Positions 36,054-45,215 of a DNA stretch of 64,000 bases are shown one piece after another. Numbering within the stretch: the first letter of the stretch is position 1; every line of letters starts with the position of its first letter. Below the pieces are notes generated by a model. The model did not search any database. It was not told the DNA's origin and saw only the letters and a list, made by a program, of their open reading frames with translations. Source of the DNA: a phage; sequence record OZ346222.1. The stretch is one strand, 5' to 3'. A program made the translations under genes and the position numbers.

Positions 36054-38483
36054 ATGAGTATGTGGTCTTTCGATTTTGAGTCATCCGGTTTGCTGGAAGA
36101 CCCAGATCTTTATTATCACTGCGGTCTGTTTAAAGAGCTGAATAAGAACCGTTTTATGCTGTTCCTTCCTCTAAATGACCGCACACACTACTCCGAGGAG
36201 GATATAGAAAAGGCTAAGAACTTCATTCTGTCAAAGAAAACTCTTTATAAAGATTTTGAAGTTCGCATAGCAGATTTTTCGGAGTTGGAAGGTTGGCTTA
36301 CAGGCAATTCTGACTGGTCACCAACAGCTTTGAACTGCCATAACTGCTACAGTTATGACTTTATGCTAATGGAAAGATTATCCGGTATTCATTTTGATAT
36401 GTTCCGTGATCCTAAATGCATGGGGACTATCAACGACCACCAGGTTAACCTGTTTGATACGTTGGCTATGAGCCGAATCTTGTGGCCTGATCGCCCTTTA
36501 CCAAAAGGTTGTCCGGACGCTGTATTCAACCCGGTTACTAAGAAAATGCAACCTGTTGGTCCTCACGGCCTTATGGCATGGGGCTACGCCCTTGGTAACC
36601 AGAAAGTTCAAATTGATGACTGGCGCGATCTTCCGTTGTGGAAGTATGTGGATCGTGTATTCGAGGACGTTATCATCCAGGAGCTGCTCTGGAAAGAGCT
36701 GGTAGCGGAATCAAAAGGTGTATTCTACGGCAAATCTGACATGCAGAACTTTATGTACGATCCAGCCAAAGAGAAGCCGAAAGGGTTCAAGAAGATCACC
36801 TGGAAGAACGCATTACGTCGAGGCATGCTGCAGCACTTCCTGATGGAGCTGCAGGCCCGTCAGGGTGTATACTTCGACATAGATGGAGCTATTGCTTTAC
36901 GTGACCGTTGCGATGCGTGGATGAAAGAAATCGCTGATCGTGTTGAACCACAACTACCTTTAAAAGAGCTGTCAATGTCTCAGCGGCCCAAGTTCCCTGA
37001 AAAGCCGTTTAACCAAGACGGGACAATCTCTAATAATGGTTGGAAATGGTTAAAAGATAAGCTTGGCTATCCTGTAGACATGAGTGCTTTAGAGTTCAAA
37101 GCCCCGCCTAAGCGAGCATTTACCTCTACAGGAGATGTCAGCAAGATGGGGATAAAATGGTGTGAAGAGATGGGCTGCAAAGACCCCGATAAGATGGCTG
37201 ATTTCTTGAGAGGCTATATTAAGGGCACCTCCACACCACAACCCTTACCTAAAGAGCTGATGGATCAGGCAATAAGTGATCTGCAGCAGAAGCGAATGCC
37301 TGACTGCAAGATACCTATGAAAATCAGCAATCAGGACGACATCAAGCGATACCTAATCAGTGCTGGTTGGCTCCCAACAATGTGGAGAACTAAAGATGTA
37401 ACTAAAGACAGCAAGAAGAAAGCTTTACCTGATGCAGATGTTGATGCACGAGTATATGCATATATGGACGAGCTTTTGGAGTCAGAGTATTGTGACCTAA
37501 TTATCAACTTCTGGAACAAAACTGATGCTAAGTTCCAGACAACCGTGCACAAGTTCCGAAGCTTTCCTAACTCCGAAAGGATTAAAAAGGAAGTATTCGG
37601 GAAAATACGTAGAAAAGCCAGGGCACTTATTACTTCTCCGCAACTGAAAGATACGTTTGGACACCTATGCCCAAATCTTGAAAAATTGAACGGAGAGATG
37701 GCTAAAGATATCGTCTTGTGGTTATCATTGCGAAACCGCAGATCGGTCCTTGATCCAATCAAGGAGGATAAGGTTGATACTGGTCTTCTTAATCACCCAC
37801 GTTTGAAGATTGACCATAAGCTTCCTGCTAAAAGCTCTGGATTAACAAACACTTCCAGACAGAAACACAGTATTTGTGCAAACATGCCTAAACCATCTCC
37901 TAAAGTGGTTATGGGTAAAGAGATGCGTAGTCTGTGGGGTGTTCCTCCGGGATACTTTGAGATCGGTATTGACGGGTCCAACTTAGAGCAGCTTATCGGG
38001 GCTTGGGGTGCCTTTGAGTTCGACAACGGCCTGTATTATGATGTTGTAAGTAACGGAGACGCACACCAAAACAATGCTGAGGCATATACAAAAGTGGCAG
38101 GCAGAGAGGTGTCCCGTAACGACGGTAAACCTATCACGTATGGGGTTATGTACGGGGCACAAAAAGATAAAGTTGCAGATATGTTGGACATCTCCCCAGA
38201 GTTGGGACAAAGGGTAATCGATGCACTCTGGGATGCCAACCCAGGTCTTAAGGGGCGCAAAGAGGATCTGGAGAAATTCTGGGAAGCAACAGGTAAGAAG
38301 TTTATCTACTCTTTTGATGGTCATGCTATCTGGACCCGATCTAAACACTCTTTACTTAATGCATACCAACAAAATGGCGGTGCATCGTTGTGTGACTTAG
38401 TTGGAATACTCATGCACCACCAGATGGTGAAGCGTGGGTGGTACGATGAAGGTGTTCGTCGTATTATTTATTACCATAAATAA
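36054..38483 (+). CDS. DNA polymerase, family A: exon 1 (3'-5' exonuclease + polymerase through motif B)
   Basis: 809-aa ORF; Exo I-like FDFESSG at N-terminus; motif A-like IGIDGSNLEQL; motif B-like KPITYGVMYGAQ; ORF terminates ...RRIIYYH-K-stop exactly where motif C (HDE) is expected. Confidence 0.7.
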   Translation: MSMWSFDFESSGLLEDPDLYYHCGLFKELNKNRFMLFLPLNDRTHYSEEDIEKAKNFILSKKTLYKDFEVRIADFSELEGWLTGNSDWSPTALNCHNCYSYDFMLMERLSGIHFDMFRDPKCMGTINDHQVNLFDTLAMSRILWPDRPLPKGCPDAVFNPVTKKMQPVGPHGLMAWGYALGNQKVQIDDWRDLPLWKYVDRVFEDVIIQELLWKELVAESKGVFYGKSDMQNFMYDPAKEKPKGFKKITWKNALRRGMLQHFLMELQARQGVYFDIDGAIALRDRCDAWMKEIADRVEPQLPLKELSMSQRPKFPEKPFNQDGTISNNGWKWLKDKLGYPVDMSALEFKAPPKRAFTSTGDVSKMGIKWCEEMGCKDPDKMADFLRGYIKGTSTPQPLPKELMDQAISDLQQKRMPDCKIPMKISNQDDIKRYLISAGWLPTMWRTKDVTKDSKKKALPDADVDARVYAYMDELLESEYCDLIINFWNKTDAKFQTTVHKFRSFPNSERIKKEVFGKIRRKARALITSPQLKDTFGHLCPNLEKLNGEMAKDIVLWLSLRNRRSVLDPIKEDKVDTGLLNHPRLKIDHKLPAKSSGLTNTSRQKHSICANMPKPSPKVVMGKEMRSLWGVPPGYFEIGIDGSNLEQLIGAWGAFEFDNGLYYDVVSNGDAHQNNAEAYTKVAGREVSRNDGKPITYGVMYGAQKDKVADMLDISPELGQRVIDALWDANPGLKGRKEDLEKFWEATGKKFIYSFDGHAIWTRSKHSLLNAYQQNGGASLCDLVGILMHHQMVKRGWYDEGVRRIIYYHK

Positions 38484-38753
38484 CATTGTGGCTTCATAGA
38501 GTAATCTATGTCGAATAACCTCTTTAACTGCGGGAAGCCTAAACCTTATGGCAAGGTAATCCGCAACGAAGCGCTCAAAAGAGCGAACGCTCAGAGGCCA
38601 TTCCGAAAGGAAGTAGACCAGCAAGTGCGGTCGAAATGGGAGGATTCCTGTGGTTGCTTATCATAGGAATATGAGATGGTCCGATCCTACGTGAAAACGT
38701 ATGGCTATGCACGTAATGGTGCGGGGTAGCTTAACGACCTACCTGAACTATTG
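38478..38753 (+). other. putative group I intron (about 276 nt, no ORF) interrupting the DNA polymerase gene at motif C
   Basis: Exon 1 ends in U (CAU His codon); intervening sequence ends in G; downstream frame resumes with GAT GAG (DE) to complete HDE; intron-internal GUGG about 10 nt in can pair with exon-terminal CCAU (P1 with U.G at splice site); boundaries +/- 2 nt. Confidence 0.5.
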
Positions 38754-39107
38754 GATGAGTACCAACTTCAAGTGCCTGACACACCGAAGTATAAGACTGT
38801 GTACACCTTCGACACAATTGAAGAACTGGAAGCATTTAAGGCAGAGCAGGAAGCCAAACTTCATGTGTTCGACGGTCATAAGTACAAAAAGGCACGCAAG
38901 GATGAGGACGGAAACGAAGTGGTTGACAGAGACGGAAACACGGTGTACGATCCTATCCTGAACGATGACGGAAAGCTTGAACTTATCTGGAGCCCTGTGG
39001 GTGAAATGGTGGTACATTGCTTCTGGCAAGCTTCTAAAATGATGGGAGTCCCGTTCCAGATCACAGGTGAATACTTGTGTGGTCGTAATTGGGGTGATTG
39101 TCACTAA
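38754..39107 (+). CDS. DNA polymerase, family A: exon 2 (motif C aspartate through C-terminus)
   Basis: Frame of track ORF 38751..39107 read from codon 2: DEYQLQV... ending ...GVPFQITGEYLCGRNWGDCH, resembling the Pol I C-terminus (...VPLLVEVGSGENWDQAH); no RBS or ATG of its own. Confidence 0.5.
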   Translation, partial: DEYQLQVPDTPKYKTVYTFDTIEELEAFKAEQEAKLHVFDGHKYKKARKDEDGNEVVDRDGNTVYDPILNDDGKLELIWSPVGEMVVHCFWQASKMMGVPFQITGEYLCGRNWGDCH

Positions 39108-41920: not shown

Positions 41921-42289
41921 ATGGAACAAATGAACGATCAAGAGTCGGTTGCGATGAACGAGCAAGAACAACCTCAAGAATTTTTCTTAGGGTTAAGTAA
42001 AGATCAAGTGTCTCTTTTGCTAGTGCTTTCTTCTTTCATGGGAAGACTTCAGGAGCTCACACAACAACCGGAGGCTGAACAATTATTTCAGGCTCTGCGT
42101 GAAGAAGAAAAATATCGTCGTTTGGACTATGCCTTAGGTTGGGTAGCTCAACAACGAGATATGCTGATGGCCCTCTCTGGGACCACAAGTTTTGCAATGG
42201 GCCTGTTGGCTCAAGTTCAGGACAAATTAATTCAAGCAGGGTTTGCACACACGGCAAACACTAACGAAGAACAAGGAGACAAAGAATGA
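41921..42289 (+). CDS. hypothetical protein
   Basis: 122 aa; RBS GGAG; possible TTGTAA-17-TAAAAT promoter about 40 nt upstream. Confidence 0.5.
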   Translation: MEQMNDQESVAMNEQEQPQEFFLGLSKDQVSLLLVLSSFMGRLQELTQQPEAEQLFQALREEEKYRRLDYALGWVAQQRDMLMALSGTTSFAMGLLAQVQDKLIQAGFAHTANTNEEQGDKE

Positions 42290-43500
42290 GCGTTATTCAA
42301 CAATTCGCTAACCCGATGAATCCGCGTGAAACTGTTTTACTGGCTCACGGCATGATTAAACGCGTCAGCATCAAGCCTATCAAAGGTGCTGATCCTACAA
42401 CAGGTATTAAAACCACTGTGTGGCAAGGTAAGAAAATTGAATCCAGCCACACCATCTCTTTACTGATTTCTGAACTGGATTCCTCTGATAACCTACTTCA
42501 AGGTGGTGAAGAAGTTTGGATCAGTATGGGCGATAAGCTGCTTAAACCGGGTCATCAAGACTCTGTCTCTGTTAAAATTGATGACAAGTGGGAAACCGTA
42601 ACGCCAGGATGGATCGTAAATATTCCTTTGAAGGCAAACGAGCATAACGGTAAGACCTATTACAAAGGCTCACTGGCTAAGATGGTTAAGCTGGGTGTAG
42701 GAGAGGCTCCAGCAGCGACTCAGCAGCAAAAACAGCAACAAGGTGTACAATCACAAGGCCAGAAGCAGAATGCCAATCAGGACGTTTTACGCATCTATGG
42801 CGATGTGACTCAGATTGTTGGCAACGTGGTTACTGTCAATGACCACAAGATTGGCGAAGGTGCTATGGTTGTCACCGATGAGCAGCTTAAAGATCTGGTG
42901 GTAGGTGGTCGTGTTGCAGCCATTGTTGACAAAGACACCGGAAACATTATCAGTGGTTTCAAAGCCTACCCCCCTAAGGCAGAGAACGGCACTCAAGGCT
43001 CCGGTGGCAAGCGTAAATCCTCTTACGACCCTATCGGTGTGGAAACGGGGCATAGCATCAATGCGTTGCAGATCATCCTGGATCGCGGGTTTAAGGTAGA
43101 CGACCCACTGGGCGTGGCTAAAACACTGCACGTAGTCACCATTGAGCTTAAGAAAGAGTATGCTCAGGCCACCAACCGAACTGAAGATGAAGTAGGTGCC
43201 AGTGTCGGTAATGCGGTGTTGAACGCTTGTCGCCGTATTGACAAGAAAACGAAAGTTGATGATTTTGCAGCGGCAATTACTGCAGAAGCAAAAGATGTCT
43301 TGACTAATCTGGCTGAGCCGTTGTACGATTGGATCAAGAACGGTGCTGGGTCAACTGACCATCAAGAACCTCAGGCTACCAAACAGGAAGCAGCTCCACA
43401 GCAAAACACTGTAGACGCTCCTCCTGTAAATGATGAGGAAGATGACCCAATGGATCAGAATCCAGCACAGTACTCCTTTGATGATGACATCCCTTTTTAA
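42286..43500 (+). CDS. ssb: single-stranded DNA-binding protein
   Basis: 404 aa; Gln/Gly-rich flexible central linker; C-terminus ...QYSFDDDIPF identical in its last six residues to the conserved acidic tip of E. coli SSB (DDDIPF); RBS AAGGAGA. Confidence 0.6.
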   Translation: MSVIQQFANPMNPRETVLLAHGMIKRVSIKPIKGADPTTGIKTTVWQGKKIESSHTISLLISELDSSDNLLQGGEEVWISMGDKLLKPGHQDSVSVKIDDKWETVTPGWIVNIPLKANEHNGKTYYKGSLAKMVKLGVGEAPAATQQQKQQQGVQSQGQKQNANQDVLRIYGDVTQIVGNVVTVNDHKIGEGAMVVTDEQLKDLVVGGRVAAIVDKDTGNIISGFKAYPPKAENGTQGSGGKRKSSYDPIGVETGHSINALQIILDRGFKVDDPLGVAKTLHVVTIELKKEYAQATNRTEDEVGASVGNAVLNACRRIDKKTKVDDFAAAITAEAKDVLTNLAEPLYDWIKNGAGSTDHQEPQATKQEAAPQQNTVDAPPVNDEEDDPMDQNPAQYSFDDDIPF

Positions 43501-43510
43501 CAATTAGTTA

Positions 43511-43545
43511 ACATAGCCCTGCCCGAAAGGGTGGGGCATTTTTAT
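43511..43545 (+). terminator. rho-independent terminator (copy 2 of duplicated terminator sequence)
   Basis: GCCCTGCCC-GAAA-GGGTGGGGC hairpin plus ATTTTTAT; same hairpin as at about 33117. Confidence 0.55.
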
Positions 43546-43562
43546 ATAAGGAGATCTGAAAA

Positions 43563-44341: not shown

Positions 44342-44767
44342 ATGATCTATGAAATGCCAAAACTGATTCGTGACGATGCCCAAAACGCTCACACCATTAT
44401 TATGGGCAAACGCATGGATATTATTTGTCATAAAGATTTCTGGGAAGGAAGTTACTTCACAGAGTATTTTGGTAAACTGGATAATGGTCTGCTGATCCAG
44501 TTCTACACCGATGCGGAAAACAACATTCCCTGGGAGTTCGAAACTGAAGATATTCATAAACTTTTCACCTTCCTCGATATTAAGGTTAAGGCCAAGTTTG
44601 AAGAGGGTGAGTGCGACGATTGTGGATTTTATGAGGTAACAGATTTCTATCTTCCAAGTGGTAAGAACCTTTACTATGAAAGCCACTTCGGTAACTCAAA
44701 TATGCCACAGTGCTGGACTGAGTTTTTTGAAATTGTGGAAGAGGAGCTGGCATATCGTGATTATTGA
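44342..44767 (+). CDS. hypothetical protein
   Basis: 141 aa; RBS GGAG. Confidence 0.5.
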   Translation: MIYEMPKLIRDDAQNAHTIIMGKRMDIICHKDFWEGSYFTEYFGKLDNGLLIQFYTDAENNIPWEFETEDIHKLFTFLDIKVKAKFEEGECDDCGFYEVTDFYLPSGKNLYYESHFGNSNMPQCWTEFFEIVEEELAYRDY

Positions 44768-45215
44768 TACTGTAGAGGGAGATTTAATCTCCCTTTTTAA
44801 GAGCGGTGCTGGTCACCTGATCCACGGTTGTAACTGCTTCCACACAATGGGTAAGGGTGTAGCAAAACAGATTGCCCGTGAGTTCCCTCAAGCATTGGAA
44901 GCTGATAAAATGACTATGCACGGTTGCCTAAGTAAACTGGGCGCGTTCTCCCGCTGGGAGCACTTATCTCCGAGAGGTATTGTCTACGGAATAAATCTGT
45001 ATACTCAGTTCTACCCAGGGCCTAATGCTGAATATTTCTCAATACTGAAAGGCTTTGAGCGAGTCAATGAAGTATTTGAGGGGTCGATTTTACCATTCTA
45101 CATCCCTAAGATCGGGTGCGGCATAGGTGGTTTGAAGTGGGAACATGTAGAGGACATTATTAACCTTGCCACTTTTGATATAGATATTATCGTGGTGGAG
45201 TACAAAGAGTGTTGA
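44757..45215 (+). CDS. macro-domain protein (ADP-ribose binding / ADP-ribosyl hydrolase-like)
   Basis: GTG start about 10 nt after GAGGAG (track ORF from 44658 overlaps upstream gene); motifs GHLIHGCNCFHTMGKGVAKQI and IPKIGCGIGGL resemble the macro-domain phosphate-binding loops (aligned by eye). Confidence 0.5.
   Translation: MIIDTVEGDLISLFKSGAGHLIHGCNCFHTMGKGVAKQIAREFPQALEADKMTMHGCLSKLGAFSRWEHLSPRGIVYGINLYTQFYPGPNAEYFSILKGFERVNEVFEGSILPFYIPKIGCGIGGLKWEHVEDIINLATFDIDIIVVEYKEC

What the first reader, a model, noticed from the sequence alone, without database searches (positions are those of the whole stretch)
42286..43500. Oversized phage SSB with an exact E. coli-type DDDIPF tip
The protein ends with the same six residues as E. 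coli SSB, which is the docking site for many host replication and repair proteins. A phage SSB with this tip could recruit or compete for host SSB-interacting proteins. It also supports an enterobacterial host. At 404 aa it is about twice the size of host SSB, with a long Gln-rich linker.
Basis: partly seen in the sequence, partly recalled or inferred. Interest (0 to 1): 0.4.

Follow-up and report, generated by a model that had tools for sequence, protein, structure and literature searches.

The report
Non-canonical phage SSB with host-type tip
An rV5-like E. coli phage encodes a 404-residue protein, in no curated family, that combines predicted DNA-binding folds and a new helical domain with a tail ending exactly like the host's single-stranded-DNA-binding protein; it is probably the phage's missing replication SSB, untested.

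Summary
The ORF is real: 42286-43500 on the + strand, 404 aa, ending ...YSFDDDIPF. The window is a Vequintavirus (rV5-like E. coli myovirus). The gene lies about 3.8 kb downstream of the DNA polymerase gene, in the replication block.

No Pfam, NCBIfam or PDB sequence family matches it, and it is not a canonical SSB by sequence. AlphaFold predicts three folded domains:
- A small five-strand barrel (166-230) with OB topology.
- A four-helix domain (247-352) with no specific match.

These are joined by a 25-residue Gln-rich linker and followed by a disordered acidic tail.

So the large size comes from extra domains, not from a long linker. The family has about 230 clusters at 50% identity. Its most conserved parts are the helical domain and the acidic x-P-F end (P 95%, F 94%). 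Some members copy the last 11 residues of E. coli SSB.

A curated, near-identical genome has no other SSB. Most likely this is the phage's replicative SSB, with a tip that docks phage and/or host partners. No experiment supports this yet.

Side finding: the codons just after the tip are a homing-endonuclease insertion site, and some homologues carry a 15-residue cap over the tip.

The parts
41921..42289 (+). Upstream 122-aa ORF of unknown function (phrog_7310). Its TGA stop overlaps the ATG of the SSB-like gene (ATGA), so the two may be translationally coupled.
   Evidence: Weakly similar small ORFs (24-29% identity) sit in the same position in L008 and L009.
42273..42278 (+). Shine-Dalgarno AAGGAG, 7 nt upstream of the ATG
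   Evidence: Read directly from the sequence.
42286..43500 (+). CDS of 404 aa including the stop: non-canonical SSB-like protein, member of PHROG 4477
   Evidence: (phrog_4477, E 7.5e-172, unknown function).
42286..42705 (+). Residues 1-140: all-beta N-terminal domain, predicted OB fold. It is mildly basic (pI 8.8). Aromatic positions W78, W102 and 120 are conserved across the family.
42706..42780 (+). Residues 141-165: Gln-rich disordered linker (11 Q in 25). Its length varies among close relatives.
   Evidence: pLDDT below 50. Composition. A 4-residue indel appears.
42781..42975 (+). Residues 166-230: small five-strand barrel with a short helix between strands 3 and 4 (OB topology). Present in about 30% of the family and absent from the ~300-aa phi92-type homologues.
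   Evidence: Secondary structure. Foldseek matches IF1 (68-71 columns, prob 0.98-1.0) and proteasome Rpt OB domains; assigning these to this domain is an inference from aligned length. 43 of 144 members have this domain.
42976..43023 (+). Residues 231-246: short basic disordered linker (GGKRKSS)
43024..43341 (+). Residues 247-352: four-helix domain, the best conserved part of the family (KDxxGxxxGHAxNxA ... YDxGAxVGxAVLNA). No known relative. Role inferred to be self-assembly or partner binding.
43342..43470 (+). Residues 353-395: disordered Pro/Gln/acid-rich tail, comparable to the SSB intrinsically disordered linker
   Evidence: pLDDT below 50. 13 D/E against 1 K/R in residues 353-404. tblastn with E. 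coli SSB residues 134-178 aligns here at 36% identity, E 0.013.
43471..43497 (+). Residues 396-404: YSFDDDIPF, the SSB-Ct-type acidic tip with a free C-terminal Phe
   Evidence: E. coli tip sequence from PMC7145534.
43516..43546 (+). Terminator-like hairpin GCCCTGCCC-GAAA-GGGTGGGGC followed by a T run, 16 nt after the stop codon
   Evidence: 9 pairs, 7 G-C. The same hairpin follows the gene in L002.

Best explanation
This is the replicative single-stranded-DNA-binding protein of rV5-like phages, built on a non-canonical plan.

Proposed mechanism (all steps inferred):
- The N-terminal OB fold, and probably the small second barrel, bind ssDNA exposed by the phage's T7-type replisome (primase-helicase plus family-A polymerase).
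- The conserved four-helix domain supplies self-association or cooperativity, or a phage-specific docking surface.
- The disordered acidic tail ending in FDDDIPF-COOH acts as in E. coli SSB and T7 gp2.5. It folds back on the DNA-binding surface when no DNA is bound. When DNA is bound it is released, and it then docks phage replisome proteins and/or host SSB-interacting proteins.

Shown here: the ORF, the tip and its family-wide conservation, the predicted folds, the genomic context, and the absence of another SSB.
For: - ORF and tip are present.
- The window is 96-98% identical to Vequintavirus genomes.
- The gene lies in the same strand block as the PIF1-like helicase, DnaB-type primase-helicase and PolA polymerase. 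Homologues in phi92-like and phiTE-like genomes also lie downstream of the polymerase.
- Aromatic residues (W78, W102, position 120) and basic residues (K87, K123) are conserved across the family in the OB domain.
- The tail is disordered, acidic and SSB-like. The x-P-F end is conserved in 150 of 186 relatives. 11 relatives have the full E. coli nonapeptide MDFDDDIPF and 7 have PPMDFDDDIPF.
- The curated BASEL genome CarlMeissner has no annotated SSB. tblastn with E. coli SSB and T7 gp2.5 finds only this tail.
- A few depositors and one UniRef entry already name homologues 'single-stranded DNA-binding protein'.
- Background: an acidic tail in both E. coli SSB and T7 gp2.5 binds partners and competes with ssDNA (PMC7145534, PMC10359462).
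Against: - There is no biochemical or genetic evidence for any family member. Literature searches found none.
- There is no sequence or profile similarity to any known SSB.
- The N-domain lacks the usual helix between strands 3 and 4.
- The most conserved part of the family is the helical domain of unknown function, not the OB fold.
- About 8% of relatives carry a 15-residue extension past the tip. In E. coli SSB, a 6-residue extension abolishes RecO binding.
- Most database records call it hypothetical.
Confidence: 0.65

Rival explanations
1. It is a host-takeover decoy or hub. Its main job would be to display an SSB-Ct tip that titrates or redirects host SSB-interacting proteins (chi/Pol III, DnaG, PriA, RecQ, ExoI, RecO and others), with ssDNA coating secondary or absent.
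For: - The tail copies the host tip, up to 11 residues in some relatives.
- The tip and the helical domain are better conserved than the OB domain.
- The phage brings its own helicase, primase and polymerase, so it may gain from disabling host replication and repair.
Against: - A decoy would not need one or two OB folds with conserved aromatic residues.
- The gene is a core, syntenic member of the replication block in several phage subfamilies.
- The genome would still lack any SSB.
Confidence: 0.12
2. It is a recombination mediator or single-strand annealing protein (RecO-like OB plus helical architecture, or the annealing activity of T7 gp2.5) rather than the fork SSB.
For: - No recombinase or annealing protein is annotated in the curated genome.
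- T7 gp2.5 combines both roles (my own knowledge).
Against: - RecO binds SSB tips; it does not carry one.
- RecO matches are no better than dozens of other OB proteins.
- There is no sequence similarity to RecO, Erf, Red-beta or Sak families.
- This reading overlaps with the main explanation rather than excluding it.
Confidence: 0.12
3. It is an OB-fold protein with a role unrelated to DNA replication (for example RNA binding or translation, like IF1, S1 or EF-P), and the tail is a convergent acidic ending.
For: Foldseek also returns IF1, eIF2-alpha, eIF5A and EF-P. OB folds are functionally diverse.
Against: - Those matches are weak (E above 0.02) and probably come from the small middle domain, which most of the family lacks.
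- The tip is conserved across the family in the form typical of SSBs.
- The genomic context is replication.
Confidence: 0.05

Closest known systems
Bacterial SSB (E. coli Ssb; Pfam PF00436, TIGR00621)
   Same: - A disordered Pro/Gln-rich linker.
- An identical FDDDIPF-COOH tip.
- The same expected logic: the tip binds partners and competes with ssDNA.
   Different: - No sequence or profile similarity in the OB domain.
- About 140-residue OB domain with extra hairpins and no helix between strands 3 and 4.
- Two extra folded domains (a small barrel and a four-helix domain).
- 404 aa against 178 aa.
- Oligomeric state unknown.
Phage T7 gp2.5
   Same: - A phage-specific OB-fold SSB with an acidic tail ending in Phe.
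- It serves a replisome made of a primase-helicase and a family-A polymerase, as in this phage.
- Its tail binds polymerase and helicase and competes with ssDNA (PMC10359462).
   Different: - No detectable sequence or profile similarity.
- gp2.5 has a single OB domain and no helical domain.
- Its tail ends DGDF, not a copy of the host tip.
Thermus/Deinococcus-type SSB and RPA (several OB folds per chain)
   Different: - The second barrel here is minimal, optional in the family, and separated from the first by a disordered Gln-rich linker.
- No sequence relationship.
Canonical SSBs encoded by phages and plasmids (e.g. HK620 SSB, PMC5928155)
   Same: A phage-borne protein that keeps the host's DDDIPF tip.
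   Different: Those are ordinary PF00436 proteins. This one is not.

Membership tests
Bacterial-type SSB (PF00436 / TIGR00621) | Sequence match to the family profile above the curated threshold | tested here: not met
   - No Pfam hit for the window protein or for any of 144 relatives.
- TIGR00621 scores 11.6 bits against a cut-off of 53.95, over the tail only.
- hhalign probability is 0.3% or less against E. coli and B. subtilis SSB cores.
Bacterial-type SSB (PF00436 / TIGR00621) | OB-fold DNA-binding core | tested here: met
   [not shown]
Bacterial-type SSB (PF00436 / TIGR00621) | Disordered linker followed by an acidic tip ending (D)DD[IL]PF with a free carboxyl terminus | tested here: met
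   Residues 355-404 have pLDDT below 50. The protein ends FDDDIPF followed by a stop. The end is conserved across the family.
Bacterial-type SSB (PF00436 / TIGR00621) | Homotetramer (or dimer of two-OB chains) and high-affinity ssDNA binding | not testable with these tools
   Needs biochemistry or multimer modelling.
T7 gp2.5-like phage SSB | Sequence or profile similarity to gp2.5 | tested here: not met
   tblastn gives only chance hits. hhalign probability is 0.1-0.3%.
T7 gp2.5-like phage SSB | OB fold plus an acidic tail ending in an aromatic residue, encoded alongside a gp4-type primase-helicase and a PolA polymerase | tested here: met
   Context: DnaB_C/AAA_25 primase-helicase and DNA_pol_A.
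PHROG 4477 (unknown function) | Full-length match to the family profile | tested here: met
   E 7.5e-172, residues 1-404 against profile positions 1-393 of 393.
RecO-like mediator | Sequence match to RecO, and a partner of (not a carrier of) the SSB tip | tested here: not met
   [not shown]

The most novel reading that the evidence does not exclude
rV5-, phi92-, phAPEC8- and phiTE-like myoviruses share a previously undescribed SSB family. In it, a divergent OB fold and a new four-helix module are fused to a copy of the host SSB's disordered linker and tip. This would let a phage with a T7-type replisome plug into (or jam) the host SSB interaction network.

In the same reading, the tip-coding DNA is itself a homing-endonuclease target, and a conserved 15-residue cap (A-P-x-G-L-Q-Y...) switches the tip off or re-addresses it in some lineages.
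Probability: 0.4. Interest if true: 0.6.

Novelty: new variant of a known kind. Interest (0 to 1): 0.45.

Why it matters
rV5-like and phi92-like phages are common in E. coli phage collections and therapy candidates, yet their genomes are usually annotated without any SSB. Assigning this gene fills that gap.

It also defines an SSB architecture that no curated profile recognises, with about 230 clusters at 50% identity. It gives a natural test of how far the bacterial SSB tip can be moved onto an unrelated scaffold. Finally, it raises a concrete question: does a virulent phage use the tip to recruit host repair and replication factors, its own replisome, or both? The capped variants and the endonuclease insertion site offer natural mutants for that question.

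Tried and rejected
- Sequence family searches found no informative family match: Pfam, NCBIfam, PDB sequences by phmmer, and a 144-sequence profile.
- hhalign of the N-terminal and middle-domain profiles against E. coli SSB, B. subtilis SsbA and T7 gp2.5 gave probabilities of 0.3% or less. N-domain against middle domain also gave nothing, so there is no evidence of an internal duplication.
- A second word-indexed homologue search with the alignment added no new proteins.
- Foldseek of the whole model against the PDB gave only E above 0.02.
- Sigma-70 promoter-like sites around the gene are no more frequent than in shuffled sequence.
- I first thought the extension past IPF was simply the leader of an inserted homing-endonuclease cassette. 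I rejected this as a full explanation for two reasons. The extension also occurs without any endonuclease gene (L004, L009). An endonuclease gene also follows an un-extended homologue (L008).
- Literature searches found no study of this protein.

Full report
**Observation.** The window has an ORF at 42286-43500 on the + strand. It starts with ATG, encodes 404 aa, and ends ...NPAQYSFDDDIPF followed directly by TAA. An AAGGAG Shine-Dalgarno lies 7 nt upstream. The ATG overlaps the TGA of the preceding 122-aa ORF (ATGA). A G+C-rich hairpin with a T run follows at 43516-43546. The last seven residues equal the end of E. coli SSB, whose nine-residue acidic tip is MDFDDDIPF (PMC7145534). The pattern DD[DE][IVL]PF occurs once in all six frames of the window, at this C-terminus.

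**Where the window comes from.** The gene is 96-98% identical in DNA to Vequintavirus (rV5-like) E. coli myoviruses such as HdK5, nimi and CarlMeissner. In those genomes it is 1227 nt rather than 1215 nt, and it is annotated 'hypothetical protein'. The 4-residue difference lies in the Gln-rich linker. In the curated BASEL genome CarlMeissner it is bas48_0087. It lies on the same strand as, and downstream of, a PIF1-like helicase, a DnaB-type primase-helicase and a family-A DNA polymerase. This is a T7-type replisome.

**Sequence family.**
- Pfam, NCBIfam and PDB sequence searches give nothing significant.
- TIGR00621 (ssb) reaches 11.6 bits against a cut-off of 53.95, and only over the tail.
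- The protein is a full-length member of PHROG 4477, 'unknown function'.
- A word-indexed search found 53 relatives. An exhaustive profile search found 230 clusters at 50% identity.
- None of 144 members hits any relevant Pfam family, and a 144-sequence profile finds no PDB relative.
- hhalign against E. coli SSB, B. subtilis SsbA and T7 gp2.5 is negative.
- By sequence, therefore, it is not a member of any known SSB family.

**Anatomy.** AlphaFold2 with a 24-sequence alignment predicts three folded parts and three disordered parts:
- Residues 1-140 are all beta.
- Residues 141-165 are disordered, with 11 Gln in 25 residues.
- Residues 166-230 form a five-strand barrel with a short helix between strands 3 and 4.
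- Residues 231-246 are disordered and basic.
- Residues 247-352 form four long helices (pLDDT about 90).
- Residues 353-404 are disordered, with 13 acidic residues against 1 basic.

Foldseek matches are weak, but they are again OB proteins: RPA, DUF2815, phage p2 SSB and LEF-3. The 68-71-column matches to IF1 (probability 0.98-1.0) fit the small middle barrel by length and topology. Assigning them to that domain is an inference.

The protein is large because it has two extra folded domains, not because of a long linker.

**Family-wide pattern.** There are two architectures:
- About 400 aa with the middle barrel (43 of 144 members).
- About 260-310 aa without it, for example the phi92-like phages.

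The best conserved segments are in the helical domain: KDxxGxxxGHAxNxA and YDxGAxVGxAVLNA. The extreme C-terminus is equally conserved, with P403 at 95%, F404 at 94% and positions 397-401 at 84-92% acidic. In the OB domain, G22, T/H54-55 and G108 are conserved, together with three mostly aromatic positions (78, 102, 120) and two mostly basic positions (87, 123). This is the sort of pattern expected for base stacking on an OB surface, which is an inference.

Of 186 full-length relatives, 150 end x-P-[FW] and 43 end DDDIPF. Eleven carry the whole E. coli nonapeptide MDFDDDIPF, and seven carry PPMDFDDDIPF. tblastn with E. coli SSB finds only this tail in the phage, at 36% identity over 56 residues (E 0.013). 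The tail behaves like an SSB linker plus tip grafted onto an unrelated body.

**Is there another SSB?** The curated CarlMeissner annotation covers the whole 137.6-kb genome. It lists helicases, primase-helicase, polymerase, ligase, exonucleases and nucleotide-metabolism genes, but no SSB. tblastn with E. coli SSB and T7 gp2.5 finds nothing else. A few depositors (ESCO32, ESCO5, ABPW7) and one UniRef entry do name homologues 'single-stranded DNA-binding protein'. I found no paper that studies the protein.

**Most likely mechanism.** The protein is the phage's replicative SSB.
- The OB fold, and probably the small barrel, bind ssDNA.
- The helical domain mediates self-association or a phage-specific contact.
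- The acidic tail competes with DNA for the binding surface. Once DNA is bound, the tail presents the tip to partners.

This is the established behaviour of the E. coli SSB tip and of the T7 gp2.5 tail (PMC7145534, PMC10359462). Whether the partners are the phage's own polymerase and helicase, host SSB-interacting proteins, or both, cannot be decided here. I give this explanation 0.65. The rivals are a decoy for host SSB partners (0.12), a recombination mediator or annealing protein (0.12, partly overlapping with the main reading), and an unrelated OB-fold function (0.05).

**Side finding.** Fifteen relatives continue past ...IPF with A-[PY]-x-G-L-Q-Y-[GA]-x-x-x-[IL]-[HY]-x-[LIF].
- In L002 (a 97%-identical rV5-like phage), a cassette of about 640 bp is inserted exactly between the Phe codon and the stop codon. 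It encodes this extension and an overlapping 207-aa EndoVII/HNH-like endonuclease.
- L003, only about 30% identical, has the same geometry with a 147-aa endonuclease.
- L008 has an HNH_3 gene directly after an un-extended homologue.
- L004 (ESCO32) and L009 have the extension with no endonuclease.

The 3' end of the gene is thus a recurrent homing-endonuclease site. The extension is a separate feature: nucleotide differences among three loci fall mostly on third codon positions, which suggests selection on the peptide. A six-residue extension of E. coli SSB abolishes RecO binding, so the extension should mask a canonical tip. Its role is unexplained. The window itself has neither the extension nor the endonuclease.

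**Verdict.** But the protein is not a canonical SSB, its size has a different cause, and function is unproven. It is a new variant of a known kind, of moderate interest.

Noticed in passing
L002 4225-4867; L003 7196-7657; L008 11161-11670 (the equivalent site in the window is 43497/43498): Free-standing EndoVII/HNH-like endonuclease genes sit immediately after the tip codons of this gene in three of six loci examined. In L002 a cassette of about 640 bp is inserted exactly between the Phe codon and the stop codon. The conserved tip-coding DNA looks like a homing site.
   Followed up: partly
L002 4225-4272; L003 7196-7242; L004 4421-4468; proteins P0002, P0006, P0019, P0044, P0048, P0049, P0056, P0107, P0144, P0161: A conserved extension of about 15 residues (A-P-x-G-L-Q-Y-G/A-x-x-x-I/L-H/Y-x-L) follows ...IPF in about 8% of relatives, with or without a downstream endonuclease gene. 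It should mask the free C-terminal Phe. Both forms (408 and 423 aa) exist among rV5-like phages that are more than 90% identical.
   Followed up: partly
window 36054-38483 and 38701-39107: The DNA polymerase ORF is 809 aa here, whereas phage CarlMeissner has a single 925-aa CDS. The rV5 reference record annotates 'DNA polymerase (x2)'. This may be a split or frameshifted polymerase gene, or a sequencing error.
   Followed up: no
window 41921-42289: A 122-aa ORF of unknown function (phrog_7310) overlaps the SSB-like gene's start codon (ATGA). Weakly similar small ORFs occupy the same position in phiTE-like contigs, so it may be a partner protein.
   Followed up: partly
window 44658-45215: A 185-aa ORF with a Macro domain (PF01661, E 2e-7) lies about 1.2 kb downstream of the gene.
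   Followed up: no
phage records MG0656xx (hits H15, H21, H22, H27, H34-H36): About 20 records named 'Campylobacter phage' are 96-97% identical to E. coli rV5-like phages over this gene. The host label looks doubtful.
   Followed up: no
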